Notes: generated by a model from the letters alone, not told the origin. A DNA stretch of 36,610 nt from a virus (IMGVR_UViG_2541047898_000006), one strand, 5' to 3'; counted from the stretch's first letter, positions 1,054 through 33,841 are shown. Numbers and translations: made by a program.

Positions 1054-1241
1054 AAAAAATGCCCTCCAGTAGAGAGCATTTTCACTGTATGTATAACCAG
1101 TGTCAATGTATGAAATCCTACGACCATACATCTCACTGAAGCCATAATTAAGTTGGCTATTCTTTTTGCTATGTGAGCATGTAACTTTTGCGGTTAACCT
1201 GCGGCTCATTTTTATTTTAGACGCAGATATAAAAGCAAAAG

Positions 1242-1433
1242 TTATCGTGAGTTTTTAGTACAGATTTTTTTGGATTTACTAATAGTTCCATCATTGCAAA
1301 CGAATTTGCCATCTGAGGTACAGTGAGAAACACCTCCCTTTTTCCCTGAGCAGGGATAATTTCTAGCATAGGTAGTTAGTGGGTTTAATAACAAAGAACA
1401 TGACAAAACCACAAAAAATACCTTACCAAGCAT
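1242..1433 (-). CDS. Small secreted Cys-containing peptide (hypothetical cargo gene between cI and int)
   Basis: 63-aa ORF with a strong SD (GGGAGG, 5-nt spacer) immediately after the cI stop. N-terminal signal-peptide-like segment ([23 protein letters not shown]) followed by a Lys-rich roughly 40-aa part with four Cys. AT-rich relative to flanking genes. Confidence 0.5.
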
Positions 1434-1448: not shown

Positions 1449-2105
1449 CTATTTAACATACTTGACTGTTAAACTTATAATTTTACCAATTATTTCAATG
1501 TCTTCTATCTTGCATTCGAAGGCTCTGTTTCCACCCTCGACGAAGATTCTTCCACCGGGTAAACGAGTAATGTCACGGATCGTTATTTCGCCATCAATAC
1601 TTATTACCCATTTACCATCACGTATATCATCAAATTCTTTATCACAAATAAATTCAGAATTGTTATCTGTGATGACAAAAGGTTTTTTAAACGTAGAGGG
1701 TAGAAATCCCTTATCAAAAATATAAAAACCGTCTTTCTGCAATGCTCCATCAGACAATAAATATTTTTCTACTTCTATAGTATTTGTATTTGCTGATGCT
1801 TGCTTTGAACCATGCCCTGTTGTTAGCCAATTAAGCGAGGTGCCCGTTTCAAGGGCGCACTGGATTACCCAATCTGCTGGAAAAATATCACGCATATAGC
1901 GCGTTGCCATGGTGCTCTTAGAAACACCTAAATGATCACATAGAGCCTGACGGGTACCGAACCCATATGCTTCAACTAAACGTTCTATGGCTTTCTTACC
2001 GCCGCTATTGAAATCCACAAGTCCTCCAAAGAAATCCAAAATTCGTTGACAGATTCCAAAAGCGATCTTAAAGTTGAACCAGAAGTGTTCTTTTGGAGCC
2101 TTCAC
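1449..2105 (-). CDS. cI: CI-type immunity repressor (186-like)
   Basis: 218-aa ORF transcribed divergently from the cox/apl-like gene and co-oriented with int. Its N-terminal segment (ERLVEAYGFGTRQALCDHLGVSKSTMATRY...ALETGTSLNWLTTG) fits a phage CI-repressor-type helix-turn-helix domain. The exact start is uncertain. Confidence 0.8.
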   Translation of the reverse strand: MKAPKEHFWFNFKIAFGICQRILDFFGGLVDFNSGGKKAIERLVEAYGFGTRQALCDHLGVSKSTMATRYMRDIFPADWVIQCALETGTSLNWLTTGHGSKQASANTNTIEVEKYLLSDGALQKDGFYIFDKGFLPSTFKKPFVITDNNSEFICDKEFDDIRDGKWVISIDGEITIRDITRLPGGRIFVEGGNRAFECKIEDIEIIGKIISLTVKYVK

Positions 2106-4232: not shown

Positions 4233-5086
4233 GCACCATCCTGAAATGGGCGGGAAATAAAACCGCCATTATGCCAGAACTGAAAAAATACCTTCCTGCT
4301 GGCCCGCGACTGGTTGAACCTTTCGCGGGTTCCTGTGCTGTGATGATGGAAACGGATTATCCCAGCTATCTGGTTGCGGATATTAATCCTGATTTAATCA
4401 ACCTCTATAAAAAGGTTGCCGCTGATTGTGAATCGTTTATATCTCGCGCCAGAGTTTTATTTGAGATCGCAAACAGGGAGGTGGCTTATTACAACATAAG
4501 GCAGGAGTTTAACTGCTCAACTGAAATTACTGATTTCATGAAAGCGGTATATTTCCTGTATCTTAATCGTCACGGTTACCGTGGTTTATGTCGCTATAAC
4601 AAGAGCGGGCATTTCAACATCCCCTACGGTAATTATAAAAATCCGTATTTCCCTGAAAAAGAACTTCGCACATTTGCAGAAAAAGCCCAGCGAGCAACGT
4701 TTATCTGCGCCAGCTTTGATGAAACGCTGGCGATGTTGAAGGCGGGAGATGTGGTGTATTGCGATCCGCCGTATGACGGTACGTTTTCCGGCTATCACAC
4801 TGATGGTTTCACTGAAGATGACCAGTATCACCTGGCATCCGTTCTTGAACATCGGTCATCAGAAGGACATCCAGTCATTGTTTCTAACAGTGACACATCC
4901 CTGATCCGTTCGCTGTATCGCAATTTTACTCACCACTATATCAAGGTAAAACGCAGCATCGGTGTGGCAGCTGGCGAGGGTAAATCAGCAACAGAAATCA
5001 TTGCTGTTTCCGGGCCGCGCTGCTGGATGGGATTTGATTATTCGCGTGGCGTGGATAGTTCTGCCGTGTACGGAGTACGTGCATGA
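4229..5086 (+). CDS. dam: DNA adenine methyltransferase (Dam family, GATC-type)
   Basis: Motifs [32 protein letters not shown] and VVYCDPPY closely parallel E. coli Dam. Start at the ATG overlapping the upstream stop, with GGAGG 6 nt upstream. Confidence 0.9.
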
Positions 5087-7497
5087 GTCATGCCGATATG
5101 AACAACTGCTGCGGCTTTAACGAGGCTGCTGCAGCATTCTCATGGAACAGCCCGAAAAAGGCCATTAACCCTTATCTGGACCCGGCGGAAGTTGCGCCGG
5201 TTTCTACGCTTTCAAACCTGATCACTCTGTACGCTGCCGATAACGAGCAGGAACAGTTGCGCCGCGAGGCACTGAGTGATCAGGTCTGGGAGCGTTATTT
5301 CTTTAATGAATCACGTGATCCTGTCCAGCGCGAAATGGAGCAGGATAAGCTCATTAGCCGGGCAAAGCTGGCGCATGAGCAGCAGCGTTTTAATTCAGAC
5401 ATGGTCATTCTGGCGGACGTCAACGCCCAGCCTTCCCATATCAGCAAGCCGCTGATGCAACGTATTGAATACTTCAGCAGCCTGGGCAGGCCAAAGGCTT
5501 ATTCCCGCTATTTACGTGAGACGATTAAGCCATGTCTGGAACGACTGGAGCATGTACGCGACAGTCAGCTATCTGCATCTTTTCGCTTTATGGCAAGCCA
5601 TGAAGGGCTGGACGGCCTGCTGATCCTGCCTGAAATGAGTCAGGATCAGGTGAAACGCCTGTCCACCCTGGTAGCTGCGCATATGAGTATGTGCCTTGAT
5701 GCAGCTTGTGGTGATTTGTATGCCACCGATGACGTTAAGCCAGAAGAAATCCGCAAGACATGGGAAAAGGTGGCAGCGGAAACCCTGCGTCTGGATGTCA
5801 TCCCACCTGCGTTTGAGCAACTCCGTCGGAAAAGAAACCGCCGTAAACCCGTGCCCTATGAACTCATTCCGGGTTCGTTGGCGCGTATGTTGTGTGCCGA
5901 CTGGTGGTATCGGAAATTATGGAAGATGCGTTGTGAATGGCGGGAAGAGCAGTTGCGTGCTGTCTGCCTGGTCAGCAAAAAAGCATCCCCCTATGTCAGC
6001 TATGAAGCAGTGATGCATAAACGTGAGCAGCGCCGTAAGTCGCTGGAGTTTTTCCGTTCTCATGAACTGGTGAACGAAGACGGCGACACGCTGGATATGG
6101 AAGATGTGGTAAACGCCAGCAGCAGCAACCCGGCGCATCGCCGCAATGAGATGATGGCCTGTGTTAAAGGTCTGGAGCTTATCGCGGAAATGCGCAGTGA
6201 CTGCGCCGTTTTCTACACTATCACCTGTCCGTCGCGTTTCCATTCCACGCTCAATAACGGCAGACCCAACCCGACCTGGACAAACTCGACGGTAAGACAA
6301 AGCAGCGACTATCTGGTCGGCATGTTTGCTGCATTTCGTAAGGCGATGCACAAAGCCGGATTGCGCTGGTATGGCGTGCGGGTGGCTGAGCCGCATCATG
6401 ACGGTACAGTTCACTGGCACCTGTTGTGTTTTATGCGCAAAAAAGACCGCCGCGCCATCACTGCATTACTGCGTAAGTTTGCCATCCGTGAAGACCGCGA
6501 GGAGCTGGGCAATAACACTGGGCCGCGCTTTAAGTCTGAGTTGATTAACCCGCGCAAAGGAACGCCGACAAGCTACATCGCGAAATATATCAGTAAGAAC
6601 ATTGACGGGCGTGGTCTGGCTGGCGAGATCAGCAAGGAAACGGGTAAATCTCTGCGTGATAACGCTGAATACGTTAATGTCTGGGCGTCTCTGCATCGTG
6701 TTCAGCAATTCCGCTTCTTTGGCATTCCGGGGCGTCAGGCTTACCGTGAACTGCGATTGCTGGCTGGTCAGGCGGCAAGGCAACAGGGTGACAAAAAAGC
6801 AGGTGCTCCGGTACTGGATAACCCGCGCCTTGATGCCATTCTGGCTGCTGCTGATGCTGGCTGTTTTGCCACCTACATTATGAAGCAGGGCGGCGTGTTG
6901 GTTCCCCGCAAATATCACTTGATCAGAACCGCTTATGAAATCAACGAAGAGCCGACAGCCTATGGCGATCACGGCATTCGTATTTATGGCATCTGGTCAC
7001 CCATTGCAGAGGGCAAGATCTGCACTCATGCAGTGAAGTGGAAAATGGTTCGTAAGGCCGTTGACGTTCAGGAGGCGGCAGCCGACCAGGGCGCTTGCGC
7101 CCCTTGGACTCGTGGCAATAACTGTCCCCTTGCTGAAAATTTGTACCAACAAGGGAAAGACAAATCAGCTGATGGAGATACCAGAACGGATATCACTCGC
7201 ATGGATGACAAGGAGTTGCACGATTACCTGCACAGTATGAGCAAAAAAGAGCGCCGGGAACTGGCAGCAAGGTTACGCCTGGTGAAACCGAAACGGCGTA
7301 AAGACTACAAACAGCGAATTACAGACCATCAGCGACTGCAGCTCGTGTATGAACTGAAGTCCAGAGGATTTGATGGCAGCGAGAAAGAGGTCGATTTGCT
7401 CCTTCGCGGTGGCAGTATTCCGTCAGGAGCAGGCCTGCGTATCTTCTATCGGAACCAGCGTTTGCAGGAAGATGATAAGTGGCGGAACCTGTATTAA
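5083..7497 (+). CDS. A: Replication initiation protein A (rolling-circle nickase, P2 gpA-like)
   Basis: 804-aa ORF at the gpA position with a YIAKYISKN-type active-site Tyr motif; translationally coupled to dam. Confidence 0.9.
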
Positions 7498-7588
7498 TCA
7501 CGTGGGTTAACAATTCGTGCTCTTAATAATACCAGGCATATCAGGCTGATGAACGTAAAAAACGTTTTACATCAGTAAGATTATTATA

Positions 7589-7608
7589 TACTGTAAATAT
7601 AAACAGTG
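7589..7608 (+). promoter_or_regulatory. LexA (SOS) box TACTGTAAATATAAACAGTG overlapping a sigma70-like promoter
   Basis: CTGT-N8-ACAG with an AT-rich spacer, close to the consensus TACTGT(AT)4ACAGTA. A -35-like TTTACA (7566..7571) sits 17 bp upstream of TACTGT (7589..7594), so the box overlaps the -10. Confidence 0.6.
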
Positions 7609-7649
7609 GTTGTGCATACAGTGTTGCTTGTGGTGTCATAGGAGGAAAG

Positions 7650-7820
7650 ATGCAGGACTATTTTTTGGAGTCTTTGAAGCTCCAGCGCATTGATTTTTTT
7701 CTTAAGCTTGTAGCGGCTAGTGAGTGTAGTGATGAAGAGAAGGGGCTGGCTCTGCAGTGGGTTTCTGAGTTGACTGATGAGCTGATGGCGAGAATTCGCG
7801 CTCATGAATACAACCACTAG
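7650..7820 (+). CDS. Small SOS-controlled protein (56 aa), candidate Tum-like antirepressor
   Basis: ATG at 7650 preceded by AGGAGG (7640..7645), about 40 nt downstream of the LexA-box promoter. Translation MQDYFLESLKLQRIDFFLKLVAASECSDEEKGLALQWVSELTDELMARIRAHEYNH; too short to appear in the ORF track. Confidence 0.45.
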   Translation: MQDYFLESLKLQRIDFFLKLVAASECSDEEKGLALQWVSELTDELMARIRAHEYNH

Positions 7821-7993
7821 ATGGATCTTCCCAGTAGTTTTTCGAAACTGAAAACAACCGAGTGAAAGTTACGACACTTGAGATTTTCACTTGGGTTATA
7901 ATCAGAATACTTGTTTTCGTCCACAAATGTACATGCCATGCATTAATGTGGTGATAGCTTTCAATTTTTACTAAATGGTTTCAATTGCTTCTT

Positions 7994-8539
7994 ATGAATC
8001 ATGTAATGTTAGATATAGAAACATTGGATGTTGAAAAAACAGCTTATATCCTTTCAGTTGGTGCGGCTTTTTTCGTGCCGGAGACTGGCGAGATTGGTCC
8101 GGGTTTCTATCAAGTTATTTCGCTTGATCATGAACAAGCAGGCAGAACCATTGCCCCCTCTACTGTAAAGTGGTGGATGAATCAAAGTACTGAAGCTAAA
8201 AACGAAAATTTTGATGGCACTAAGGACCTTTTAGAGGTTCTGAATGAATTTGTGGCATTTATTCATCATAATCGTACTGGCCGAGTAAAAGTGTGGGGAA
8301 ACGGGAAAGAGTTTGACTGCACGATCATGCATCATGCCCTGTTACAGGCGGGTCTGGATTGCCCATGGTCATTCAGAGATACTCTTGACGTTAGAACCAT
8401 CTTAGCACTTGGTGAAAGCAAAGGAATTTTTTCTCATGCTGATAAAAATTTCACTGGCATTAGGCACACAGCATTCGATGATGTTTTATTTCAGATCGCA
8501 CAGGTTTCTCACATCTATATGAATTTAAATAAAAAATAA
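7994..8539 (+). CDS. DEDDh-type 3'-5' exonuclease (DnaQ-like)
   Basis: N-terminal DIETLD (Exo I motif) and C-terminal HTAFDD (H-x4-D) motifs. AT-rich. Start ambiguous (TTG 7985, ATG 7994 or ATG 8006). Confidence 0.7.
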   Translation: MNHVMLDIETLDVEKTAYILSVGAAFFVPETGEIGPGFYQVISLDHEQAGRTIAPSTVKWWMNQSTEAKNENFDGTKDLLEVLNEFVAFIHHNRTGRVKVWGNGKEFDCTIMHHALLQAGLDCPWSFRDTLDVRTILALGESKGIFSHADKNFTGIRHTAFDDVLFQIAQVSHIYMNLNKK

Positions 8540-8554
8540 ATATAGGACTTAGCT

Positions 8555-9466
8555 ATGGATTGCTTAGATGTAACCTATTGGACTGAGCTAGATGTTTTCG
8601 CACAGTATCCTGTTGGTGCTCGCTCTAAGGCATTGGTTATTTCCCCTGATGTTGCCCCCCATGGTATCAAAGCATCGTGGCCGTATCTTTTTAAGAGAAG
8701 TATTAAAAAATACCCAGATCAATTTTGGTGTGAGATCGTTGCCTACAGGATTGGATTGCAGCTTGGTTTTAATGTCCCCAAAGCAGTTCCTTCGTTAAAG
8801 ACTAATGATTTGGGGCATACGTTTTGCGGGGCCCTCATTGAGTGGTTTCATCATAAAGATTATGAGAAATTTGCTCCCGCTGGTGATTACTTTGTTCGAA
8901 GAGATCCAAATTTTGATCGTGAGAAAGGAGCTAAGCATTCCATTGAAGGGCTGAGGATTATCGCGAAAGCTCTTAAAGTTGACTATGTTGAGTGGTTGGA
9001 GAATATGGCTCTCTTTGACGCAGTAATAGGTAATACAGATAGACATCAAGAAAACTGGGGGTTTATCTTCTCACCTTTAACCAGCGAGTGTCAGCTTGCA
9101 CCATTTTTCGATAATGGTACGAGCTTATGCTACGAACGTTTTCCGGAACATGTTGCTGATTGGACCGATCATAGACTCAGGGAGCATGTTAGCCGGGGAA
9201 AGCATCATTTGCGTAAGACTCTGGGCAAAGATGAGTATCAGAGATTAGGTCATTTAGAGTTAATCAAAGAACTTTGTGATAAAAAAGAAGAATTAAAACA
9301 GCGGGTAGCTGAAAGACTGGCTCGTTTGAACCATGACTTTTGGGACTCAACTTTTGCGGAGTTGACGGAAATAAACTGCCCTGTTCCGCTGACTAGAGAA
9401 CGTGCTGCATGGATTGTTCGTGTAACAAACATGCGTATTGAACTGATTAAAGGTGTTACTTCATGA
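8555..9466 (+). CDS. HipA-like Ser/Thr kinase core (HipT-like, lacks the HipA N-terminal subdomain)
   Basis: Aligns by eye to E. coli HipA motifs: ATP-binding loop PVGARSKAL (HipA VAGAQEKTA), EIVAYRIGLQLGFNVPKA (HipA LLLAKELGLNVPDA), catalytic loop IGNTDRHQENWGF (HipA IGATDGHAKNFS), Mg-binding LAPFFDNG (HipA LTPFYDII). AGGA SD; 15 nt after the exonuclease stop. Confidence 0.7.
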   Translation: MDCLDVTYWTELDVFAQYPVGARSKALVISPDVAPHGIKASWPYLFKRSIKKYPDQFWCEIVAYRIGLQLGFNVPKAVPSLKTNDLGHTFCGALIEWFHHKDYEKFAPAGDYFVRRDPNFDREKGAKHSIEGLRIIAKALKVDYVEWLENMALFDAVIGNTDRHQENWGFIFSPLTSECQLAPFFDNGTSLCYERFPEHVADWTDHRLREHVSRGKHHLRKTLGKDEYQRLGHLELIKELCDKKEELKQRVAERLARLNHDFWDSTFAELTEINCPVPLTRERAAWIVRVTNMRIELIKGVTS

Positions 9467-10167
9467 CTATCTTAATAGAAAAAATTCCCATGCCAAGTAG
9501 GCTCTTACTGACATGGCAACCGACCGACGGCGGCTCTCGCTATGTCGTTGGTGAACTTCTTCAAGATGAGTCTGAAGGCTACGAGTTTAATTATCTTACG
9601 GATAGCAAAGATTTTGCTAAAGCTGTGGATAAAGGCTTTCACGGTTTTCCTGCTTTTGACATAAAAGTTACGACTCATCGCAAAGACGTTATGCAAACCT
9701 TTTCAAGAAGGTTACCCTCTAGGAAAAGAGAAGATTTTGCCGATTACTTGCTGACGTTTCGTCTTCCTGCTGATTTTAGAGAGAATGACTTCGTTTTGCT
9801 CGCTTGTACTGGCGGAAAAGTGGCTAGTGATGGTTTTTATTTTGTCCCAGACTTGTCTTCTATTCGGCCACCTTTTGATTATGTCATGGAGGTCGCCGGA
9901 ACGAGACACATGATTAAGGAAGGGCGTCTAGCTCTTGACGAGATATCAATTGGTGATGAAGTCATATTGCGCAATGAAGATACCAATACTGTTGATCCGC
10001 TGGCCATATTAGTAACGAAAAACGACAATCATCTAGGATATGTCAACAAGGCATTGTGCGCCGCATTACGAGATCTTGGTAAAAACCATGATATCAGTGG
10101 AGTGGTCGTACGTAAAAATGGCTCTTCGGATAGGCCTTTGATTTATGCAAAAGTATCTGTTAGATGA
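9463..10167 (+). CDS. Two-domain protein: HipA N-terminal-like (HipS-like) domain fused to a C-terminal HIRAN domain
   Basis: Start overlaps the kinase stop (ATGA). N-terminus LLLTWQPTDGGSRYVVGELLQDESEGYEFNY and FSRRLPSRKRED parallel the HipA N-terminus (LVTWMNNQRVGELTKLANGAHTFKY; FDNLLPDSPIVRDR). C-terminus GDEVILRNEDTNTVDPLAILV...LGYVNKALCAALRDLG...GVVV matches the HIRAN pattern (E-V-L-R-x-P-x-N-x-x-D-x-N-A-I-x-V ... G-[YH]-[VL]-x-K-x-L-A-x-x-L). Confidence 0.55.
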   Translation: MTILIEKIPMPSRLLLTWQPTDGGSRYVVGELLQDESEGYEFNYLTDSKDFAKAVDKGFHGFPAFDIKVTTHRKDVMQTFSRRLPSRKREDFADYLLTFRLPADFRENDFVLLACTGGKVASDGFYFVPDLSSIRPPFDYVMEVAGTRHMIKEGRLALDEISIGDEVILRNEDTNTVDPLAILVTKNDNHLGYVNKALCAALRDLGKNHDISGVVVRKNGSSDRPLIYAKVSVR

Positions 10168-10475
10168 TGCATGTTTATTCATGCTTGCTAGTGATGCTGC
10201 ATTTATAGAGTCTGTCAACTATGGAGATTTTTTCGTCTCATGCAACTACATTAAATTACCATTAAGTGGGTTGACGTTGCGGGGGAAGCATTACACGTCA
10301 GTATTGGTGCGTCTGAAGTGTCATGCCGAAAAGGTATGAAAAAGCCGCTTGGTAACATAACTATTCGCAATGATGTTGTAGGAAGCGAACTGGAAATGAT
10401 AGCAATGGATGCTGTTGATGTAGTGTATGTCTATGCTGCATGAGTTTGCATGAACGTTTGAGGCTCGTTTTTGTT

Positions 10476-10502
10476 AAGGCCCGCCAGAACTGGCGGGCTT
10501 TT
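10476..10502 (+). terminator. Rho-independent terminator ending the cargo operon
   Basis: GC-rich hairpin GCCCGCCAG / CTGGCGGGC followed by TTTT on the plus strand. Confidence 0.6.
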
Positions 10503-10547
10503 GCTCATGTCATGCAGGTGCATGAAAACCACTTCATAAAGCGGGCA

Positions 10548-10566
10548 GGCGTGGCGGGGATACGAG
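10548..10566. other. Putative cos (cohesive end) site GGCGTGGCGGGGATACGAG
   Basis: The first 13 nt match what I recall as the conserved start of P2/186 cohesive ends (GGCG[A/T]GGCGGGGAAAGCA.). It lies between the hotspot operon and the portal gene and is flanked by GGGGATACG direct repeats (10556..10564 and 10578..10586). Confidence 0.4.
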
Positions 10567-10653
10567 CGCGCGCTGATGGGGATACGGTGTTTTTAGTAAG
10601 GTTATGAGGTAGAATTTGACGCGGTTTTTTTAAGCATATTGAGGTGTAAATAG

Positions 10654-11199
10654 ATGGATGCTATTACTGGATTATTGGATTTTTTTAGAAAGATTCCAAC
10701 GGCACTTCTTGTAGCTATTACATGTGGTTTAAGTTTGATCCTTTTTTTGCCAGAATCTTTAGCTTCTAAAGTTGCGGTTGATGGTTTCCGTAAAGAATAT
10801 AGAAATTTCATAGGACCAGCATTTTTACTGGCTGTCTCTTTTTTAGTTGCAAGAGTATATCAGTTTTTTCATGACCTATATGGCGATAGACAAAGGCACA
10901 AAGTACGTATCTCTTATTTGGAGAAGCTAACTCCTGAGGAGAAGGGATACCTCTGGTCTTATATAATTGATGGCGAAAACTCACTAATGTGTGGTCCTGA
11001 AGATGGTGTTATGGGGGGGTTGGTTGCTAAGCGCATAACCTATAGAGCTGCAAACGTGGGCAGTATGATTGACGGATTCGCTTTCAATTTGCAGCCGTGG
11101 GCTCGCGAGCATTTACAGAACAACACTCATTTATTAGAAGGAGCGGTCGGTAGGGCAATGACACCGGGTGAGAAACTAGGATTCAGGCGTAGATTTTAA
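10654..11199 (+). CDS. Membrane protein (two N-terminal TM helices plus cytoplasmic domain); possible superinfection-exclusion-type cargo
   Basis: 181-aa ORF with GAGGTG SD. Hydrophobic segments TALLVAITCGLSLILFL and GPAFLLAVSFLVARVY. Sits between the putative cos and the portal stop, where P2 has only about 100 bp. Confidence 0.55.
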   Translation: MDAITGLLDFFRKIPTALLVAITCGLSLILFLPESLASKVAVDGFRKEYRNFIGPAFLLAVSFLVARVYQFFHDLYGDRQRHKVRISYLEKLTPEEKGYLWSYIIDGENSLMCGPEDGVMGGLVAKRITYRAANVGSMIDGFAFNLQPWAREHLQNNTHLLEGAVGRAMTPGEKLGFRRRF

Positions 11200-11243
11200 C
11201 CAGTCGCACACAGGCGATGCTTGACTGGTTAGACAGGGATAAT

Positions 11244-12281
11244 CTATTCAGCGTTCAACTGGTAGGGGTCAAAAGATATTATTGGCTCATTTAACCATTC
11301 GTTAAGTTCTTCAAGTCGCTTTTGTAAAGGAATTAACTCATTTCGCACAAAAACGCGGCTGGCCTTTTCCACATCCCCAAAACCTCCAACATTATTTGGC
11401 ATAATCCCCATCATTTGCGGCGGCACGCGGTGCGCCGCCATCATGTCATCCCGGCTCACGTTCTTGATGTTTAGAAACTCATCCTTTGCTGCGACCTCTG
11501 ACAACGGGATGATCTGAAGCCCATCCTTTTTGCCGTTAGGCGAGTACATAAACAGGTTGCGGAAGTTGCCCGGACCTTTGGCGCTTTTCATCGCGTTGCG
11601 GAGGTTGTTCACGTCCTCCTGGTTCTGCGCAGCATCGGTCATGTACATGATGAAGCCTGCATGACTGCCGTTAATGTAATACTTGCGGCGGAACAGCGTG
11701 GCGGACTCGTTGAGCAGGGCTGACGGAATGGCAGAAAGATAACCGGGCAGGCCGTAGATCTCCTGGTTAATGTCCGGTTCCATCAGATGAAAAATGCTTC
11801 CTTTCGTGAACTGATACGGCTGGGTTGTCATACCGTATTGCACAAACCAGTAGGTATCCAGGTCTAACCCGCGTCGGGTGTATTTTGCTAGTGCAGGCTC
11901 AAGGGCGATAACTTCACCGAAGCGGTTCGTGCGTTTCTCCAGGTAGGCGTTACCAAATACCAGATAGTCCTGCACAAAACGCGAAAAAGCTTGCTGGCTG
12001 AGCAGAGGATGAGGGATATAGGTACTGGTCAGAATGTTGCACTTTACTGCAATCGGGGAACTGTGATGCACGGCAGCGCGGAAGGTGCGCGCCAGTCCGT
12101 CAAAGCTGACGGGCGGCTCATACCAACGGTCCATCTGTACGCATTCCACATAGTCCAGTAATTCTCGGCGGTCCAGAACAGGAACGGGATCGCCGAAGCT
12201 GAATGCTTCGGCTGAAGTCTGGCTTTTATGCTGGTTCTGGTTCGTCGACGCAGTGCGGTTTTTCTTACTCTTTCCCATCAA
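11244..12281 (-). CDS. Q: Portal protein (gpQ)
   Basis: 345 aa on the minus strand, size and position as P2 gpQ, overlapping the terminase gene. Confidence 0.88.
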   Translation of the reverse strand: MMGKSKKNRTASTNQNQHKSQTSAEAFSFGDPVPVLDRRELLDYVECVQMDRWYEPPVSFDGLARTFRAAVHHSSPIAVKCNILTSTYIPHPLLSQQAFSRFVQDYLVFGNAYLEKRTNRFGEVIALEPALAKYTRRGLDLDTYWFVQYGMTTQPYQFTKGSIFHLMEPDINQEIYGLPGYLSAIPSALLNESATLFRRKYYINGSHAGFIMYMTDAAQNQEDVNNLRNAMKSAKGPGNFRNLFMYSPNGKKDGLQIIPLSEVAAKDEFLNIKNVSRDDMMAAHRVPPQMMGIMPNNVGGFGDVEKASRVFVRNELIPLQKRLEELNEWLNEPIISFDPYQLNAE

Positions 12282-14044
12282 AAAATCTCCACAATATTGC
12301 TGGTATTGGCGGACTCGCCCTGCAGCGGTTCGTTAAACAGTGCGTGCATCGTTGCCCAGGCCAGATCGGCGTGGCTGGCTTCTTCGCTGCGGCTGGCTTC
12401 ATAGGTTGGGCGGTTGCCACTGGCGGTGGTTGCGCGACGGATTGCCATGAATGACTGCGCAATGTCGGTGTGCCCGGCGTCAAACTCCAGACGGCGGTGG
12501 CTGATAATGTCGTAGGCCTTGAGTACCAGGGCATTTTTAACATTGGGGTTGTAGACAAACTCCCGGACGGCAGGAAAGAACGCTTTCACGTTCTCATAAA
12601 CCCCGTGACCAACGCCGGTTGAGTCGATACCGATATAGGTCACGTTGTACTGTTCGGTCAGTTTTTTGATGGCGTCAGCCTGGGCGCGGAAGTCCATCCC
12701 GCGCCACTGGTGACGCTCAAGAATGCGGAACTTACCGCCCGGCACGGCTGGCGGTGCCACCACCACGCATCCGGCGCTGTCGCCGTTCTGCGTACCTTTT
12801 GCCGGGTCATAACCGATCCACACTTCGCGCCAGCCAAACGGGCGCAGGGCCAGTGCATGAAAGTCGGTCCATACTTCCCAGCTGTCCACCATGCACGCCT
12901 GCAGTTCGCTGAGCGGGAACACGGACGCGAGATCGTCCACGAACTCGCACATCAGCAGGTTCTGGTATTCGTCCGGGCTGTACTCCATGCGCAGCTGGTC
13001 GAGGTCGAACAGGTTACAGCCGCCGCGCACCGCATCTTCCACGGTGACTATCTGGCGGTATTGCCCGTCTGCGCACAGCAGGCCGGGGGCCAGATTGCTG
13101 TGGGACAGGTCGATGTCCACCTTGTCAGCTTTGTTGCGTCCACGGTTGAACAGCGCACCGGACCAGAACGGATAAGCACTGTGGGTCAGGCTGGATGGTG
13201 TGGAAAAATAGGTCTGTCGCCATTTCTTGTGAATAGCCATACCGGAAGCCACTTTGCGTAGCTCCTGAAATTTCGGTATCCAGAAATATTCATCCAGATA
13301 CAGGTTGCCGTGATAACTCTGGGCAGTGCGGGCATTGGTGCCGAGGAAGTAAAGTGTGGCCCCGTTAGGAAGCACCATCGGATCGCCTTTCAGCTCCACC
13401 TCCACTTCTTTGGCGAAGTCGATGATGTACTGCTTAAAGACGTGGGCCTGTGCCTTACTGGCGGAAAGAAAAATCTGGTTACGTCCGGTAAGCAGAGCGT
13501 CAATCAGGGCTTCACGGGCAAAGTAAAAGGTCGCGCCGATCTGGCGTGACTTCAGCAGGTTGCGGATGCGGTTGGTTTTTCCGGCTTCCCACCAGTGGCG
13601 CTGGTAGTTGAACATGGAGGAATGGAAGATTTCTTCCAGCTTCTCAATCTGTTCATCGGTGAAGACATTCTTTTCCGGTTGACGGCGCGGGCCTTTGTTG
13701 CGGTTGGCGACGTTAGGGTTTAAGTCGGCTTCGTTGCCGCCATTGTTAAACTTGCCGATCCGCGCGTGGCGCTCCGACTGGCGCGCCAGCAGGTCAATTT
13801 CTTTAAAGTCTTTCCCTTCTTTGTGCTCCTTCATAATGAGCTGGCAGTAGCGTGCGGCGGTGGTGAGCTGCATCTGATCCAGCGGCCCATAGTCACCCCA
13901 CTTGTCGCGTTTTTTCCAGCTGTGAACGGTTGCAACTTTCTCGCCCAACATTTCAGCAATGCGGGCGACGCGGTATCCCTGAAAGTACAGCAGCATGGCC
14001 TGCCGACGGGGATCGAGATCTGCGGGTGTCAGTGTGGTGTTCAT
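12278..14044 (-). CDS. P: Terminase large (ATPase) subunit (gpP)
   Basis: 588 aa, divergent from the capsid operon; size and synteny as P2 gpP. Confidence 0.88.
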   Translation of the reverse strand: MNTTLTPADLDPRRQAMLLYFQGYRVARIAEMLGEKVATVHSWKKRDKWGDYGPLDQMQLTTAARYCQLIMKEHKEGKDFKEIDLLARQSERHARIGKFNNGGNEADLNPNVANRNKGPRRQPEKNVFTDEQIEKLEEIFHSSMFNYQRHWWEAGKTNRIRNLLKSRQIGATFYFAREALIDALLTGRNQIFLSASKAQAHVFKQYIIDFAKEVEVELKGDPMVLPNGATLYFLGTNARTAQSYHGNLYLDEYFWIPKFQELRKVASGMAIHKKWRQTYFSTPSSLTHSAYPFWSGALFNRGRNKADKVDIDLSHSNLAPGLLCADGQYRQIVTVEDAVRGGCNLFDLDQLRMEYSPDEYQNLLMCEFVDDLASVFPLSELQACMVDSWEVWTDFHALALRPFGWREVWIGYDPAKGTQNGDSAGCVVVAPPAVPGGKFRILERHQWRGMDFRAQADAIKKLTEQYNVTYIGIDSTGVGHGVYENVKAFFPAVREFVYNPNVKNALVLKAYDIISHRRLEFDAGHTDIAQSFMAIRRATTASGNRPTYEASRSEEASHADLAWATMHALFNEPLQGESANTSNIVEIF

Positions 14045-19555: not shown

Positions 19556-19997
19556 ACTGCAGAAAGTGGACGACTGGCTGAGTGCTTTGTTGGCGAATCT
19601 GGAACCAGCCGCCAGAAGCCGCATGATGCGCCAGCTGGCGCAGGAACTGCGCCGGACACAGCAGCAGAATATCAGGATGCAGCGCAACCCTGACGGCAGC
19701 AGCTATGAACCGCGACGGGTAACAGCACGCAGTAAAAAGGGGCGTATCAAACGTCAGATGTTTGCAAAGCTGCGCACCACAAAATATCTGAAAACTGCAG
19801 CCAGCGCCGATTCTGCCAGCGTACAGTTTGAAGGTAAGGTGCAGCGCATTGCCCGCGTTCATCACTACGGCCTGCGCGATCGTGTCAGTCGTAAGGGACC
19901 GAAGGTCCGTTACGCAGAGCGTCGCCTGCTGGGTGTAAATGATGATGTTGAAGCAAATATTCGTGATATTTTGCTACGTTGGCTAAGCCAATATTAA
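19548..19997 (+). CDS. S: Tail completion protein S (gpS)
   Basis: 149 aa, overlapping R; size and synteny as P2 gpS. Confidence 0.85.
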   Translation: MAELQKVDDWLSALLANLEPAARSRMMRQLAQELRRTQQQNIRMQRNPDGSSYEPRRVTARSKKGRIKRQMFAKLRTTKYLKTAASADSASVQFEGKVQRIARVHHYGLRDRVSRKGPKVRYAERRLLGVNDDVEANIRDILLRWLSQY

Positions 19998-19998
19998 T

Positions 19999-20694
19999 TC
20001 ATGTCAAATATTGATAACTTTTATCAATTTCAAGTTTGTGAAATTTGGTTATCTTTGAATCAATGTATAAATCTATGAACATTGCTATCCCTATCATAAA
20101 TATAAATAGAATGCTTAAATAAATAATGGGGGTGGCAATCATAATTGTAAATTTGTTCTTGTCTGTCGTTTTTGCTAACTCTTCTTTCTTTTCAGGAATT
20201 AGCAAGTAGCTACAAATGAAATCTTTTGTGGCTTGTTGGATTGAAGTGATCTTATCAAGCTGTGACTTGTCAACACATACATCTGGTGTGATATTCCATT
20301 CAGGTGTGTATGGTATGTTTTGTGCGTGTTCTGGTTTCATCCAAAAGGAATCTTTTGTTTCTCTATGTGTGATTTCAATCCAATTTACGGGTTCTTTGGC
20401 GATGAAATAGGTAAATTTATAAAAACAAAGTGCTGAGGTCATAATGACTGCAATTCCAAATGAGACGATAAATATTTTATGTTTTTTAATATGGGGTTTT
20501 GTGCTTAACTTATATTTGCAAAGACTAAGTCTAATAATTGGCTTTGATATTCCAATCTTTGATATCAAAAAGTCTTCTTCTGGATAGGATGTGTTTAACC
20601 ATGACCAAAAAGCCGAGATGCCACCTATAAGCCATTTAAATATAAGACCACCAATGGCCGTAGCTAAAAATGTATTTATTTTATCAATTTCCAT
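19999..20694 (-). CDS. AT-rich membrane protein of unknown function (cargo in the S-V slot)
   Basis: 231-aa minus-strand ORF inside the otherwise plus-strand late region. GGGGA SD 5 nt upstream. Three hydrophobic helices, at the N-terminus, near residue 80 and near the C-terminus. Visibly lower GC than neighbours. Confidence 0.65.
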   Translation of the reverse strand: MEIDKINTFLATAIGGLIFKWLIGGISAFWSWLNTSYPEEDFLISKIGISKPIIRLSLCKYKLSTKPHIKKHKIFIVSFGIAVIMTSALCFYKFTYFIAKEPVNWIEITHRETKDSFWMKPEHAQNIPYTPEWNITPDVCVDKSQLDKITSIQQATKDFICSYLLIPEKKEELAKTTDKNKFTIMIATPIIYLSILFIFMIGIAMFIDLYIDSKITKFHKLEIDKSYQYLT

Positions 20695-20730
20695 ATAGAT
20701 CCCCTTTGGGTTGAGCTATCTGGGATTATA

Positions 20731-20748
20731 TGTATGAGAGACAGAACA
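20731..20748 (+). promoter_or_regulatory. TGT-N12-ACA dyad, candidate late promoter element upstream of V
   Basis: TGTatgagagacagaACA in the S-V intergenic region; it sits closer to the V start codon than expected for a -55 site. Confidence 0.3.
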
Positions 20749-20794
20749 ATGAAGCGAGGTTCGTTAAAATAGGAATCACGGGCATTCTTTCTTC

Positions 20795-21729: not shown

Positions 21730-22624
21730 CCTTTCGCAGTTGCCTGCACCGCAGATTGTGGATGTGCCGGACTTTGAGACGCTGCTTGCCGAACGCAAGG
21801 CAGAATTTGTGGCGCTTCATCCGAAAGATGAGCAGGAAGCAGTGATCCGCACGCTGGAACTGGAATCTGAACCCGTCACCAAATTGTTGCAGGAGAACGC
21901 TTACCGTGAATTGCTTCTGCGCCAGCGCATTAACGAAGCCGCGCAGGCGGTGATGGTGGCTTACGCGATGGGCGGCGATCTTGACCAGCTCGCTGCCAAC
22001 TACAACGTGAAACGCCTGACGGTGACGCCTGCTGATAATGACGCTGTGCCGCCCGTTGCGGCAGTGATGGAAAGTGATGAAGCGTTACGCCTGCGTGTGC
22101 CTGCAGCCTTTGAAGGGCTTTCAGTTGCGGGGCCAACTGCCGCTTATGAATTTCATGCCCGAAGCGCCGACGGTCGGGTGGCGGATGCCAGTGCAACCAG
22201 TCCGGCGCCTGCAGAGGTGGTGCTGACGGTCCTGAGTCGTGAAGGCGACGGAACAGCAGAAAAAGACCTGCTGGATGTGGTGGAAAAAGCACTGAACAGT
22301 GAGAACGTCCGCCCGGTGGCTGACCGTCTGACGGTTCGCAGCGCGGAAATCATCCCGTACCGCGTGGAAGCCACCATTTTTCTCTACCCGGGGCCGGAAG
22401 CAGAGCCGGTAATGGCAGCGGCAAAAGCCAGCCTGCAGAAGTACATCGCCAGTCAGACGCGTCTTGGTCGGGATATTCGCCGTAGTGCCATTTTTGCCGC
22501 GCTGCATGTTGAGGGGGTTCAACGTGTAGAACTGGCTTCTCCGCTGGCGGATGTGGTCCTGAACAAAACACAGGCGGCATCATGTACGGAGTGGAGCGTA
22601 ACCAACGGAGGAACGGATGAATAG
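21716..22624 (+). CDS. J: Baseplate protein J
   Basis: Start at ATG 21716 (AGGAG SD) gives 302 aa, the same length as P2 gpJ. Confidence 0.88.
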   Translation: MAVIDLSQLPAPQIVDVPDFETLLAERKAEFVALHPKDEQEAVIRTLELESEPVTKLLQENAYRELLLRQRINEAAQAVMVAYAMGGDLDQLAANYNVKRLTVTPADNDAVPPVAAVMESDEALRLRVPAAFEGLSVAGPTAAYEFHARSADGRVADASATSPAPAEVVLTVLSREGDGTAEKDLLDVVEKALNSENVRPVADRLTVRSAEIIPYRVEATIFLYPGPEAEPVMAAAKASLQKYIASQTRLGRDIRRSAIFAALHVEGVQRVELASPLADVVLNKTQAASCTEWSVTNGGTDE

Positions 22625-23222
22625 TCTGCTGCCACCGGGTTCAACGCCACTGGAGCGCCGACTGGCACAAGCGTGCAGCGGGATTTCTGATCTGCAGGTG
22701 CCGCTGCGTGACTTGTGGAATCCGGCAACCTGTCCGGTCAGTTTCCTGCCTTATCTTGCCTGGGCGTTCTCTGTGGATCGCTGGGACGAGAGCTGGACAG
22801 AAAGCGTCAAACGCCAGGTGGTAAAGGATGCTTTTTATATTCATCAGCATAAAGGAACCACCAGTGCCGTGCGGCGGGTGGTGGAACCGTTCGGCTTTCT
22901 GATCCGCATTATTGAGTGGTGGCAGACCGGAGAGACACCGGGCACGTTTCGTCTGGATATCGGCGTGCAGGACCAGGGCATCACTGAAGATACCTATCTG
23001 GAACTTGAGCGGTTGATAAGCGATGCCAAACCATGTAGCCGTCACATGATCGGCATGTCCATCAATCTGCAGAGCAGTGGCCCGCATTGGGTGGGGGCCG
23101 CCAGTTATCTTGGCGAAGAAATCACGATCTATCCGTATATCAACGAAACAATTATTTCCGGCGGCACCGCGCATGAAGGCGGGGCGGTCCATGTTATTGA
23201 CACAATGAGAGTGAATCCATGA
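22617..23222 (+). CDS. I: Tail protein I
   Basis: 201 aa, overlapping J and H; synteny with P2 gpI. Confidence 0.85.
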   Translation: MNSLLPPGSTPLERRLAQACSGISDLQVPLRDLWNPATCPVSFLPYLAWAFSVDRWDESWTESVKRQVVKDAFYIHQHKGTTSAVRRVVEPFGFLIRIIEWWQTGETPGTFRLDIGVQDQGITEDTYLELERLISDAKPCSRHMIGMSINLQSSGPHWVGAASYLGEEITIYPYINETIISGGTAHEGGAVHVIDTMRVNP

Positions 23223-24646: not shown

Positions 24647-25242
24647 TGACAGAAGCGAAACTAAATAATGAGTTTATAGCTGTGGAATCTGGCAATATAA
24701 CGGTGTTTAACTTTGATATTGAAACTCGTGAATATCTTTCTTCTAGTGTTGAATTTCTTGCTGTAGGGGTTGGGATTCCTGCTAATTCATGCATTGATAT
24801 GCCGGGTAAAAGTAAAAAAGGGTTAACCATTTGCCGGACTAAGGATCTTACCGCGTGGGAATATATTGCTGATCATCGAGGTGAGACTGTTTATAGCACC
24901 GAAACTGGCAAAAAAATAGCTGTAACAGTGCTCGGCGATTACCCAGAAAAAACTACGAAACTACCTCCTGCTACACCATACGATAAGTGGAACGGTAGTG
25001 CATGGGTGACAGATACCGAGATGCAGCACGAGGTTGACGTGGAAACTGCTGATCAGAAGAAAGCGGAGCTTCTGGCAAAGGCTCAGCTAACAATCAATCT
25101 ATGGCAGACAGAACTACAATTAGGAATTATCAGTGATGAAGATAAAGTCAGACTAATCACCTGGATGAATTACATCAAAGCGGTGCAGTTGGTAGACACG
25201 TCAACTGCGCCAGATATAACGTGGCCGAGGAAGCCCGAGTGA
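24646..25242 (+). CDS. G: Tail fibre assembly chaperone (gpG)
   Basis: 198 aa, coupled to H; size and synteny as P2 gpG. Confidence 0.8.
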   Translation: MTEAKLNNEFIAVESGNITVFNFDIETREYLSSSVEFLAVGVGIPANSCIDMPGKSKKGLTICRTKDLTAWEYIADHRGETVYSTETGKKIAVTVLGDYPEKTTKLPPATPYDKWNGSAWVTDTEMQHEVDVETADQKKAELLAKAQLTINLWQTELQLGIISDEDKVRLITWMNYIKAVQLVDTSTAPDITWPRKPE

Positions 25243-25369
25243 CTGAGAATTAAATGGTTAGTATCATCCTCCCCCACACTGCCTATATGGTATGAATACG
25301 AGGGGGAGGCTGTTTGTTGTCTGTTTCTGTGATAATATTAGATTCTCGTTTTTTAATAAAAAAATCAAT

Positions 25370-26380: not shown

Positions 26381-26514
26381 GTAAAAGCAAAAAAGGCTCT
26401 CGTCAACCGACGAAGCCTTTTAAAACGAGTATTAATTCCCGTCCTGTAAAGTGCCCCCTATCCCAGAACAACGTTTTTAGTTATCAACGCCGTTCCGAAA
26501 ATTTCCTGCGACGT

Positions 26515-26532
26515 TGTGTGATTAACCGTACA
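26515..26532 (+). promoter_or_regulatory. TGT-N12-ACA dyad, candidate Ogr-dependent late promoter element (PF)
   Basis: TGTgtgattaaccgtACA lies about 80-95 bp upstream of the FI start codon. Confidence 0.4.
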
Positions 26533-26608
26533 ACGCACATCAGCTGTCTGCATGGCGTAATCAATACAACATAGGGCGAAGCCTAAACCAATCAGGAGGT
26601 TCGCCACT

Positions 26609-27781: not shown

Positions 27782-27790
27782 GGGGACAAC

Positions 27791-28306: not shown

Positions 28307-28360
28307 TGTATCTGAACGGCGCGGAATGCCGCGCCAGAACCTAATTTACAGGACAACAAA

Positions 28361-33777: not shown

Positions 33778-33841
33778 TCATTAAAAAATAGTGCTTCTAA
33801 CATCATGATTTTAAAAGGCATAAATTTCAGGCAACAAAAAA

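What the first reader, a model, noticed from the sequence alone, without database searches (positions are those of the whole stretch)
7560..7820. LexA-box promoter driving a small ORF at the head of the cargo operon (candidate SOS antirepressor)
A near-consensus SOS box (TACTGTAAATATAAACAGTG, 7589..7608) overlaps the -10 of a sigma70-like promoter (TTTACA, 17 bp, TACTGT) and is followed by a 56-aa ORF with a strong AGGAGG SD. The prophage carries a long 186-type CI, which in phage 186 is not RecA-cleaved but inactivated by the LexA-controlled antirepressor Tum, encoded downstream of the replication gene. This small protein is therefore a candidate Tum-like antirepressor. If transcription reads through, the exonuclease and kinase/HIRAN genes would also be SOS-inducible.
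Basis: partly seen in the sequence, partly recalled or inferred. Interest (0 to 1): 0.6.

Follow-up and report, generated by a model that had tools for sequence, protein, structure and literature searches.

The report
Known SOS-controlled prophage antirepressor gene tumA
This is the DNA-damage switch of a P2/186-like prophage: a LexA-repressed promoter drives a small protein (TumA) that inactivates the phage repressor. Deleting the near-identical gene in a sister prophage of E. coli HS is already published to abolish induction, so the finding is correct but ordinary.

Summary
TACTGTAAATATAAACAGTG (7589-7608) is a strong LexA box that overlaps the -10 of a TTTACA-17-TACTGT promoter. An AGGAGG site (7640-7645) and a 56-aa ORF (7650-7820) follow.

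The ORF is 95% identical to Fels-2 STM2728 and to the 62-aa tum gene of the E. coli HS prophage DuoHS. Published primers show that this small ORF is the gene whose deletion abolishes mitomycin C induction; lexA(Ind-) does the same. The ORF is a distant homolog of the N-terminal half of 186 Tum and corresponds to PSP3 tumA. The promoter layout copies 186 p95. The window prophage is colinear with DuoHS at 94-97% identity.

- A second, weaker LexA box (7604-7623) overlaps the first in the same way as in colicin operators. This dual arrangement occurs in 26 of 38 related loci.
- This allele has a premature stop and lacks the last 6 residues.
- The usual DinI-like partner gene (tumB) is absent, replaced by an exonuclease/kinase/HIRAN cargo.
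- Read-through into the cargo is plausible but unproven.
- A second strong LexA box sits in the int promoter.

Novelty: already known. Interest is low.

The parts
7557..7562 (+). A-tract just upstream of the -35 (possible UP-like element)
   Evidence: The sequence is. The column majority is 0.9 or more in 26 related loci, while neighbouring columns are 0.4-0.6.
7566..7571 (+). -35 hexamer TTTACA of the p95-like SOS promoter
   Evidence: It is conserved (0.9-1.0) in 26 loci. It is analogous to the TTCACA annotated as the -35 of 186 p95.
7589..7594 (+). -10 hexamer TACTGT (17-nt spacer), which is also the left arm of LexA box 1
   Evidence: The 186 record annotates the same hexamer as the -10 of p95. 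TATACT at 7587-7592, with a 15-nt spacer, is an alternative reading.
7589..7608 (.). LexA box 1, TACTGTAAATATAAACAGTG (strong)
   Evidence: HI is 4.15, and 0 of 100 shuffles reach 6 or lower. The box is identical in Fels-2, E. coli HS, DS26-1 and phage 500465-1.
7604..7623 (.). LexA box 2, CAGTGGTTGTGCATACAGTG. Its 16-mer core shares one base with the core of box 1, as in colicin dual operators. It is weak in this allele.
   Evidence: HI is 12.9 here, against 7.4 in E. coli HS and 9.6 in Fels-2. CTG-N10-CAG-N12-CAG is present in 26 of 38 loci. Box 2 columns average 0.88 against 0.54 for the downstream flank. The Fels-2 box 2 is identical to box 2 of ColE1 cea.
7640..7645 (+). Shine-Dalgarno AGGAGG, 4 nt before the ATG
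   Evidence: AGGAGG or GGAGGG is conserved in nearly all loci.
7650..7820 (+). tumA: a 56-aa antirepressor gene, a truncated allele of the canonical 62-aa protein
   Evidence: It is 95% identical to Fels-2 STM2728 and to E. coli HS tum. PHROG cross-hits link it to 186 Tum, and hhalign gives E=5e-4. It shows a coding signature. The AF2 model is a two-helix hairpin with pLDDT 89.9. The protein is 62 aa in 31 of 36 loci. The stop replaces the Ser57 codon.
7827..7835 (.). End of the backbone shared with DuoHS and Fels-2, and start of the variable cargo region
   Evidence: Matches in phages and E. coli end at window 7826-7830. Colinearity with E. coli HS stops at 7826. The tail resembles the '...SMDLPG' allele class of L012, L026 and L040.
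7858..7894 (+). 13-bp hairpin without a U-tract, between tumA and the cargo. It is not a canonical terminator.
   Evidence: RNA fold centroid. The terminator scan finds nothing on the + strand.
7897..7902 (+). Perfect TATAAT with no good -35; a possible separate promoter for the cargo
   Evidence: Sequence. The scanner did not call it.
7985..10167 (+). Cargo downstream of tumA: an Rv2179c-like 3'-5' exonuclease, a HipA_C-like kinase and a HIRAN protein. Possibly co-transcribed with tumA.
   Evidence: Pfam. PADLOC PDC-M03A (4e-36) and PDC-M03B (9.5e-37). Among the loci held, the cargo is present only in DS26-1-type genomes.
1449..2015 (-). cI: the 186-type immunity repressor and presumed target of TumA
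   Evidence: PF07022 plus PF16452. It is 87% identical to E. coli HS DuoHS CI, with an identical C-terminal half, and 33% identical to 186 CI.

Best explanation
The region is the SOS induction module of a Fels-2/DuoHS-type, 186-like (P2 family) prophage.

In the lysogen, host LexA occupies a strong operator (7589-7608) that covers the -10 of a TTTACA-17-TACTGT promoter. It probably also occupies a second, overlapping weak operator (7604-7623) that covers the transcription start. This keeps tumA silent.

DNA damage activates RecA, and LexA cleaves itself. The promoter then fires and the small two-helix protein TumA (7650-7820) is made. By analogy with 186 Tum, TumA binds the 186-type CI repressor non-covalently and stops it binding its operators. 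The early lytic promoter is then released and the prophage is induced.

What is shown here: the sequence anatomy, conservation, homology and orthology. What is taken from published genetics on the ortholog: the requirement for tum and for cleavable LexA. What is inferred: LexA occupancy of this copy, TumA-CI binding, the function of box 2, the activity of this 56-aa allele, and read-through into the cargo.
For: 1. Anatomy and statistics of the operator and promoter. The architecture is identical to the annotated 186 p95, LexA site and tum.

2. The ORF is a real gene. It has 452 homologs at E<=0.01 and is found in 66 phage records. The block 7400-7830 matches in 1103 of 5426 complete E. coli genomes.

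3. Homology to the N-terminal half of 186 Tum rests on shared PHROG families and on hhalign at E=5e-4. PSP3 annotates the equivalent gene as tumA, 'UV induction of prophage'. Lemire et al. 2011 (PMC3121763) state that Fels-2 and PSP3 have tum split in two, and that the upstream half is the antirepressor in PSP3.

4. The ORF is 95% identical to E. coli HS ECHS_RS04495. Published primers fuse exactly that ORF's ATG to its stop codon. The resulting delta-tum and lexA(Ind-) both abolish mitomycin C induction of DuoHS (PMC12055606).

5. The window prophage is colinear with DuoHS at 94-97% identity. Its CI is 87% identical, with an identical C-terminal half.

6. The Fels-2 operon STM2726-27-28, which has an identical box 1, is induced 5.5-14.8 fold (STM2727) by the mutagen MX (PMC2225428).

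7. The dual operator is present in 26 of 38 loci from many genera and is conserved above its flanks. It has the same geometry as the ColE1 cea operator. Colicin operators of this kind bind two LexA dimers and give very tight repression (PMC2994835).
Against: - Nothing was measured on this copy.
- This allele carries a stop at codon 57 and lacks the moderately conserved tail R-S-M-D-V-x-S. The protein is 62 aa in 31 of 36 loci, so its activity could be reduced.
- Box 2 is at its weakest here (HI 12.9). On its own it would not be called a LexA site.
- Identity to 186 Tum is only about 20%, and BLASTP finds nothing.
- Direct TumA-CI binding has been shown only for 186 Tum. I know this from Shearwin et al. 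1998, which I could not read here.
- The heterology-index matrix was built from operators recalled from memory. Only the ColE1 sequence was verified.
- The 26 loci were selected by a pattern that requires the CAG trinucleotides, so their 100% conservation is by construction. Only the other columns carry information.
Confidence: 0.85

Rival explanations
1. This particular tumA allele is crippled. The nonsense codon at position 57, together with loss of tumB, leaves a prophage that is poorly inducible or non-inducible by SOS. The promoter then mainly serves whatever lies downstream.
For: The canonical length is 62 aa in 31 of 36 loci, and the tail R-S-M-D is fairly conserved. The allele with this cargo is rare: 5 of about 1100 E. 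coli matches. Box 2 is also degraded relative to E. coli HS and Fels-2. The DS26-1 copy carries an IS66 element in the same hotspot.
Against: The 23 invariant and 9 nearly invariant residues of the family all lie within residues 1-54. The AF2 hairpin ends at residue 55. The tail is the most variable part (...DVIS...DLPG...NQAE), and a Pantoea locus also ends at 56 aa. In 186 the equivalent stretch is a linker to the DinI domain. The rest of the prophage is colinear and intact relative to DuoHS. About a third of the related loci also lack tumB.
Confidence: 0.2
2. In this window the main role of the promoter is SOS-dependent expression of the downstream exonuclease/kinase/HIRAN cargo, a defence-like module. 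TumA is merely the first gene of that operon.
For: There is no canonical terminator between 7820 and 7985. 186 p95 also transcribes a downstream gene, orf97, which blocks 186 infection when expressed from a plasmid. Fels-2 STM2726-28 behaves as one damage-induced operon. The kinase and HIRAN proteins match the PADLOC candidate system PDC-M03.
Against: The promoter-tumA block is conserved regardless of what follows it, so it did not evolve for this cargo. A 13-bp hairpin (7858-7894) and a perfect TATAAT (7897-7902) lie between tumA and the cargo, which suggests partly independent expression. A defence system normally has to be expressed in the uninduced lysogen.
Confidence: 0.1
3. The small protein is not an antirepressor. 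Instead it modulates the SOS response itself (RecA or LexA), as DinI or 186 Tum72 do.
For: Database annotations label 186 Tum and its PHROG family as 'RecA filament binding protein DinI'.
Against: That label comes from the C-terminal DinI-like half of 186 Tum, which this ORF lacks. The ORF aligns only to Tum residues 1 to about 50. There is no DinI homolog anywhere in the window. In E. coli HS the delta-tum strain still shows SOS reporter activity after mitomycin C, yet it cannot induce the phage.
Confidence: 0.03
4. The LexA-like palindrome is a chance AT-rich inverted repeat with no regulatory role.
For: The core CTGT-N8-ACAG occurs by chance in 39 of 100 shuffled windows. The promoter was not called by the consensus scan.
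Against: The full 20-mer score was never reached in shuffles. The box is conserved across genera while its flanks diverge. It occupies the same position as the LexA site of 186 p95. lexA(Ind-) blocks induction of the sister prophage.
Confidence: 0.02

Closest known systems
tum of E. coli HS prophage DuoHS (ECHS_RS04495 / EcHS_A0919) and Fels-2 STM2728
   Same: The proteins are 95% identical. LexA box 1, the -35, the SD and the position after gene A are all identical, and DuoHS uses the same attachment site (ybjJ/rcdA...ybjL). The whole prophage is colinear with DuoHS at 94-97% identity. delta-tum and lexA(Ind-) abolish DuoHS induction.
   Different: The protein is 56 aa here instead of 62 aa because of a premature stop. 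The box 2 spacer carries G/C substitutions. The DinI-like gene that follows in E. coli HS and Fels-2 is replaced here by an exonuclease/kinase/HIRAN cargo. The N-terminal half of CI differs (87% identity overall).
Tum of coliphage 186 (p95 SOS operon)
   Same: A LexA box forms the -10 (TACTGT) of a promoter placed after replication gene A. The N-terminal 50 aa or so are homologous (PHROG cross-hits; hhalign E=5e-4). The partner is a 186-type CI that is not a RecA substrate. Downstream genes belong to the same SOS operon.
   Different: 186 Tum is a 146-aa fusion with a C-terminal DinI-like domain and has internal starts. 186 has a single LexA box and a shorter leader (38 nt against 61 nt from the start of the box to the start codon). 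Identity is about 20%. A partial terminator, t95a, follows tum.
TumA/TumB of phage PSP3
   Same: The arrangement is split: a roughly 60-aa tumA ('UV induction of prophage') stands as a separate gene behind a LexA box after gene A. It is reported as the antirepressor half (PMC3121763).
   Different: PSP3 TumA is only about 21% identical (hhalign E=0.079). PSP3 has a single LexA box and keeps tumB (DinI), which this window lacks.
Dual overlapping SOS boxes of colicin operons (for example ColE1 cea)
   Same: Both have two LexA 16-mers that share one base, CTGT-N8-ACAG followed by GTGG-N8-ACAG, overlapping the -10 and the start site. The Fels-2 box 2 is identical in sequence to cea box 2.
   Different: The controlled gene is a phage antirepressor, not a colicin. 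LexA binding to box 2 is untested here, and this window's box 2 is the weakest of its group.
LexA-controlled small antirepressors of Gifsy prophages (GfoA/GftA) and N15 AntC
   Same: The logic is the same: LexA represses a small antirepressor that inactivates a non-cleavable repressor by binding it (PMC3121763).
   Different: No sequence relationship was detected in the family scans. The gene order differs (dinI comes first in the Gifsy prophages), and so do the repressor families.

Membership tests
Tum/TumA antirepressors of 186-like Peduoviridae | Homology to the N-terminal ~50 residues of 186 Tum | tested here: met
   The ORF and 186 Tum residues 1-50 hit the same PHROG families: phrog_698 (1.6e-33 / 2.7e-6), phrog_8554 (2e-8 / 1.7e-12) and phrog_1993 (0.003 / 1.3e-19). 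hhalign gives E=5e-4 and is colinear. The ORF is 95% identical to the Fels-2 and E. coli HS tum genes. Pairwise BLASTP alone finds nothing.
Tum/TumA antirepressors of 186-like Peduoviridae | LexA operator overlapping the promoter immediately upstream | tested here: met
   This holds at the sequence level. Box 1 has HI 4.15 and is never reached in shuffles. It overlaps the -10 exactly as in the annotated 186 p95 and is conserved across genera. Physical LexA binding cannot be tested here.
Tum/TumA antirepressors of 186-like Peduoviridae | Location between replication gene A and the portal/terminase genes of a P2/186-like genome | tested here: met
   Gene A lies at 5083-7497 (PF05840). The portal and terminase genes lie at 11244-14044 on the minus strand. 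The order is the same as in 186, PSP3, Fels-2 and E. coli HS.
Tum/TumA antirepressors of 186-like Peduoviridae | Cognate 186-type CI repressor that lacks RecA-dependent autocleavage machinery | tested here: met
   CI matches PF07022 and PF16452. The Peptidase_S24 match is below threshold (16 bits against a cutoff of 23.3). CI is 33% identical to 186 CI and 87% identical to DuoHS CI. The absence of cleavage itself was not tested.
Tum/TumA antirepressors of 186-like Peduoviridae | Binds CI and relieves repression; required for SOS induction | not testable with these tools
   This has been shown genetically for the 95%-identical E. coli HS ortholog (PMC12055606). It has been shown biochemically for 186 Tum (Shearwin et al. 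1998, cited from my own knowledge and through PMC3121763).
Tum/TumA antirepressors of 186-like Peduoviridae | Full-length product (62 aa in the Fels-2/DuoHS subgroup) | tested here: not met
   The product is 56 aa, with TAG in place of the Ser57 codon. It is 62 aa in 31 of 36 loci. All invariant residues are retained.
DinI family (C-terminal half of 186 Tum / TumB) | DinI-like domain in the protein, or a DinI gene immediately downstream | tested here: not met
   The ORF aligns only to the N-terminal part of Tum. tblastn with Fels-2 TumB finds nothing in the whole window (best E=1.1). It does find tumB in 24 of the other 37 loci.
Colicin-type dual overlapping SOS operator | Two LexA 16-mer cores that share one base, with the second one having a degenerate left arm (GTGG) | tested here: met
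   The cores are 7591-7606 (CTGTAAATATAAACAG) and 7606-7621 (GTGGTTGTGCATACAG). The geometry matches the ColE1 cea operator verified in NC_001371. The arrangement is present in 26 of 38 loci.
Colicin-type dual overlapping SOS operator | Binding of two LexA dimers, giving very tight repression and late induction | not testable with these tools
   This is a property of colicin operators according to PMC2994835. Here it is inference only, and box 2 of this allele is weak (HI 12.9).

The most novel reading that the evidence does not exclude
Fels-2/DuoHS-type prophages may have built a high-threshold commitment circuit out of SOS parts. A colicin-style double LexA operator on tumA would mean that only deep, sustained LexA depletion fires it. 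A separate strong LexA box inside a consensus promoter directly upstream of int (window 1083-1102) would make integrase supply damage-inducible as well. The same SOS promoter would feed whatever cargo occupies the hotspot behind tumA, here a PDC-M03-like kinase/HIRAN pair with an exonuclease.
Probability: 0.35. Interest if true: 0.35.

Novelty: already known. Interest (0 to 1): 0.15.

Why it matters
The finding matters mainly for annotation. This small gene is labelled 'hypothetical protein', or even 'levan regulatory protein', in about a fifth of complete E. coli genomes and in many Klebsiella and Salmonella prophages. It is in fact the tumA induction switch, and it can be named with confidence. 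It predicts that these prophages are induced by DNA-damaging antibiotics through LexA rather than by repressor cleavage. The secondary observations (dual operator, SOS-boxed int promoter, cargo behind an SOS promoter) could refine models of how 186-like prophages set their induction threshold. They could also show whether hotspot defence genes are boosted during the SOS response. All of these are incremental.

Tried and rejected
- Pairwise BLASTP of the ORF against 186 Tum found no alignment. Profile methods were needed.
- Pfam has no family for the ORF, and PADLOC has none either.
- The consensus promoter scan called nothing in 7300-8200, and the only terminator-like site is on the minus strand inside the exonuclease gene.
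It was repeated with Fels-2 TumA alone.
It was repeated with database proteins.
- Foldseek of the two-helix model against BFVD gave 367 hits, none at E<=0.001. A helical hairpin is too generic to be informative.
- Rfam (gathering thresholds, whole window) found no RNA family in or near the region, so an sRNA explanation has no support.
- The RNA fold of 7810-8010 is not significantly stable (z = -1.44).
- A literature search on tumA, STM2728 and TumB returned only unrelated papers.
- Bunny et al. 2002 (PMC151935) is not held.
- The antisense ORF 7584-7817 was considered as the real gene and rejected.
- A DinI-like function was considered and rejected.

Full report
**What is there**

- an A-tract at 7557-7562;
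- TTTACA at 7566-7571;
- a 17-nt spacer, then TACTGT at 7589-7594;
- the palindromic 20-mer TACTGTAAATATAAACAGTG at 7589-7608;
- AGGAGG at 7640-7645;
- an ATG at 7650 opening a 56-codon ORF that stops at 7818-7820.

The minimal core CTGT-N8-ACAG is not rarer than chance in a window of this size: 0.49 matches are expected, and 39 of 100 shuffles contain one. The full 20-mer is rarer than chance. I built a heterology-index matrix from 21 E. coli LexA operators recalled from memory, of which only the ColE1 operator was later verified in a database. With this matrix the site scores 4.15, comparable to recA and sulA. No shuffled window reached 6 or lower.

The generic promoter scanner did not call the promoter, because TACTGT is a poor -10. 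However, the curated record of phage 186 annotates exactly this hexamer, which is the left arm of the LexA box, as the -10 of the SOS promoter p95.

**Genomic context**

The window is a P2/186-like prophage, with these genes:
- int at about 1-1053 on the minus strand;
- a 186-type CI at 1449-2015 on the minus strand (PF07022 plus PF16452, no significant S24 peptidase match);
- apl/cox-like, cII, fil and dam genes;
- replication gene A at 5083-7497;
- the module under study;
- a variable cargo;
- portal and terminase genes on the minus strand.

The prophage is colinear with prophage DuoHS of E. coli HS at 94-97% identity, except at 7827-11332, 19957-20794 and 23683-26513. It sits at the same chromosomal site; the host sRNA gene rybB is at 33833-33911.

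The block 7400 to about 7830 recurs at roughly 94% identity in 1103 of 5426 complete E. coli genomes and in 59 phage records, mostly Klebsiella P2-like phages. Only five E. coli genomes share the sequence beyond 7830.

**The ORF is a real gene**

- 452 database proteins match at E<=0.01.
- Across 35 distinct sequences from many enterobacterial genera, column entropy by codon position is 0.30/0.15/0.88.
- The overlapping antisense ORF (7584-7817) is interrupted by stops in 24 of 36 loci.
- AlphaFold2 predicts a confident two-helix hairpin, with helices at 2-23 and 28-55 and pLDDT 89.9. A fold search was uninformative.

**The ORF is tumA**

Pairwise BLASTP against 186 Tum finds nothing, but profile methods do.
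- The ORF hits phrog_698 (1.6e-33), phrog_8554 (2.1e-8) and phrog_1993 (0.003).
- The first 50 residues of 186 Tum hit the same three families (2.7e-6, 1.7e-12, 1.3e-19).
- hhalign of a 17-sequence alignment against 186 Tum gives E=5e-4, colinear from residue 1.

The ORF therefore corresponds to the N-terminal, non-DinI half of Tum. PSP3 annotates the equivalent separate gene as tumA ('similar to 5' end 186 tum; UV induction of prophage'), followed by tumB (DinI). Lemire et al. 2011 state that Fels-2 and PSP3 have tum split in two, and that the upstream gene carries the antirepressor activity in PSP3 (PMC3121763).

The window ORF is 95% identical to Fels-2 STM2728 and to E. coli HS ECHS_RS04495.

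The decisive link is the Phollow study (PMC12055606). In E. coli HS, an in-frame delta-tum and a lexA(Ind-) allele each abolish mitomycin C induction of DuoHS. The published primers place the deletion exactly.
- The reverse complement of NHR24 is GTGGTGTCATAGGAGGAAAGATG followed by TGA.
- NHR28 continues into the start of the DinI-like gene.
- The deletion therefore runs from the ATG to the stop of the 62-aa ORF ECHS_RS04495.
- The same 23-mer occurs at window 7630-7652.

In addition, the Fels-2 operon STM2726-27-28, whose box 1 is identical to the window's, is induced by the mutagen MX. STM2727 rises 5.5 to 14.8 fold (PMC2225428).

**Mechanism**

Shown here: the anatomy, conservation, homology and orthology.

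Taken from the literature on orthologs: dependence of induction on tum and on cleavable LexA. Non-covalent inactivation of CI by 186 Tum comes from Shearwin et al. 1998, which I cite from my own knowledge and through.

Inferred for this copy:
1. LexA bound at 7589-7608 occludes the -10.
2. After DNA damage LexA is cleaved and TumA is made.
3. TumA binds the 186-type CI.
4. The early lytic promoter is released and the prophage is induced.

The window CI is 87% identical to DuoHS CI and has an identical C-terminal half.

A second LexA-like 20-mer, CAGTGGTTGTGCATACAGTG (7604-7623), overlaps the first. The two 16-mer cores share one base. This is the geometry of the dual SOS operators of colicin genes.

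I confirmed the ColE1 cea operator TGCTGTATATAAAACCAGTGGTTATATGTACAGTA in NC_001371, 52 nt (centre to ATG) upstream of the colicin E1 start codon. The Fels-2 box 2 is identical to cea box 2. Colicin dual boxes bind two LexA dimers and give very tight repression (PMC2994835).

Among 38 related loci (33 from a scan of species-representative genomes, plus phage and E. coli loci), 26 carry CTG-N10-CAG-N12-CAG upstream of tumA.
- Within those 26, box 1 columns average 0.92 majority frequency and box 2 columns 0.88.
- The flanks average 0.54-0.65.
- The trinucleotides themselves were part of the selection pattern, so their conservation is by construction.
- Phages 186 and PSP3 and the Pantoea, Erwinia and Tatumella loci have a single box, and all but the two Tatumella loci a shorter leader.

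In this window box 2 is the weakest of its group, with HI 12.9 against 7.4 in E. coli HS.

**Peculiarities of this copy**

- The canonical protein is 62 aa in 31 of 36 loci. Here a TAG replaces the Ser57 codon and removes the tail (R)SMDVIS/N.
- All invariant residues lie within 1-54, the tail is the most variable part, and one Pantoea locus also ends at 56 aa. I therefore think the protein is probably still active, but this is untested.
- There is no DinI/tumB gene anywhere in the window. About a third of the related loci also lack it.
- Homology to DuoHS ends at about 7827.

**Cargo and read-through**

The cargo begins after the junction at about 7827. It comprises an Rv2179c-like 3'-5' exonuclease, a HipA_C-like kinase and a HIRAN protein. 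The kinase and HIRAN proteins match the PADLOC candidate defence system PDC-M03A/B.

Between tumA and the cargo there is no canonical terminator. There is a 13-bp hairpin without a U-tract (7858-7894) and a perfect TATAAT (7897-7902). Read-through from the SOS promoter is therefore plausible, and it has precedent in 186 (tum-orf97) and in Fels-2. It is not demonstrated, and the cargo may also have its own promoter.

**Verdict**

The module is already known: it is the tumA/tum SOS switch of 186-like phages, tested experimentally in a near-isogenic prophage. Interest is low.

The residual novelty lies in three points:
- the colicin-type dual operator;
- the LexA-boxed int promoter noted in passing;
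- the possibility that hotspot cargo is SOS-boosted.

Noticed in passing
window 1083-1102 (promoter on the minus strand, about 1040-1115): A second strong LexA box, CACTGGTTATACATACAGTG (HI 5.3-6.1), lies inside a near-consensus promoter (TTGACA, 17 nt, GAAAAT) directly upstream of the integrase start codon (about 1053, minus strand). It is conserved in E. coli HS, DS26-1 and Klebsiella phage 4LV2017-like genomes, even where the upstream sequence differs. This suggests SOS-inducible int expression. The part of the 186 record examined (22000-30624) has no equivalent site.
   Followed up: partly
window 7985-10167: The cargo behind tumA has three genes: an Rv2179c-like 3'-5' exo(ribo)nuclease (PF16473, 1e-50), a HipA_C-like kinase and a HIRAN-domain protein. 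The last two match the PADLOC candidate defence system PDC-M03A/B (4e-36 and 9.5e-37). The exonuclease has no PADLOC match. The cargo is found with this tumA allele in only 5 complete E. coli genomes.
   Followed up: partly
window 10654-11199: An ORF of 181 aa with a SieB superinfection-exclusion domain (PF14163, 2e-22) lies in the same hotspot, before the portal gene. In strain DS26-1 an IS66 element is inserted in this region.
   Followed up: no
window 1242-1433 (minus strand): A small ORF of 63 aa lies between cI and int. It has a signal-peptide-like N-terminus and six cysteines ([16 protein letters not shown]...). It is 98% identical in E. coli HS, is annotated as hypothetical, and has no Pfam match.
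   Followed up: no
window 33833-33911 (minus strand): [quoted passage not shown] By colinearity with E. coli HS the prophage occupies the site between rcdA and ybjL.
   Followed up: no
L038 (Siccibacter turicensis) and L025 (Enterobacter MAG), upstream of 2501: These are examples of decay. In L038 both LexA boxes are degenerate and tumA is cut to 20 codons. In L025 only box 2 has lost its ACAG arm. Such cases could serve as natural controls for operator function.
   Followed up: no
window 1449-2105 compared with L007 4701-5270: The window CI and the DuoHS CI have identical C-terminal halves. They differ at 24 positions in the N-terminal DNA-binding half and linker. TumA is nearly identical in the two prophages. 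This is compatible with TumA targeting a conserved part of CI while immunity specificity diverges.
   Followed up: no
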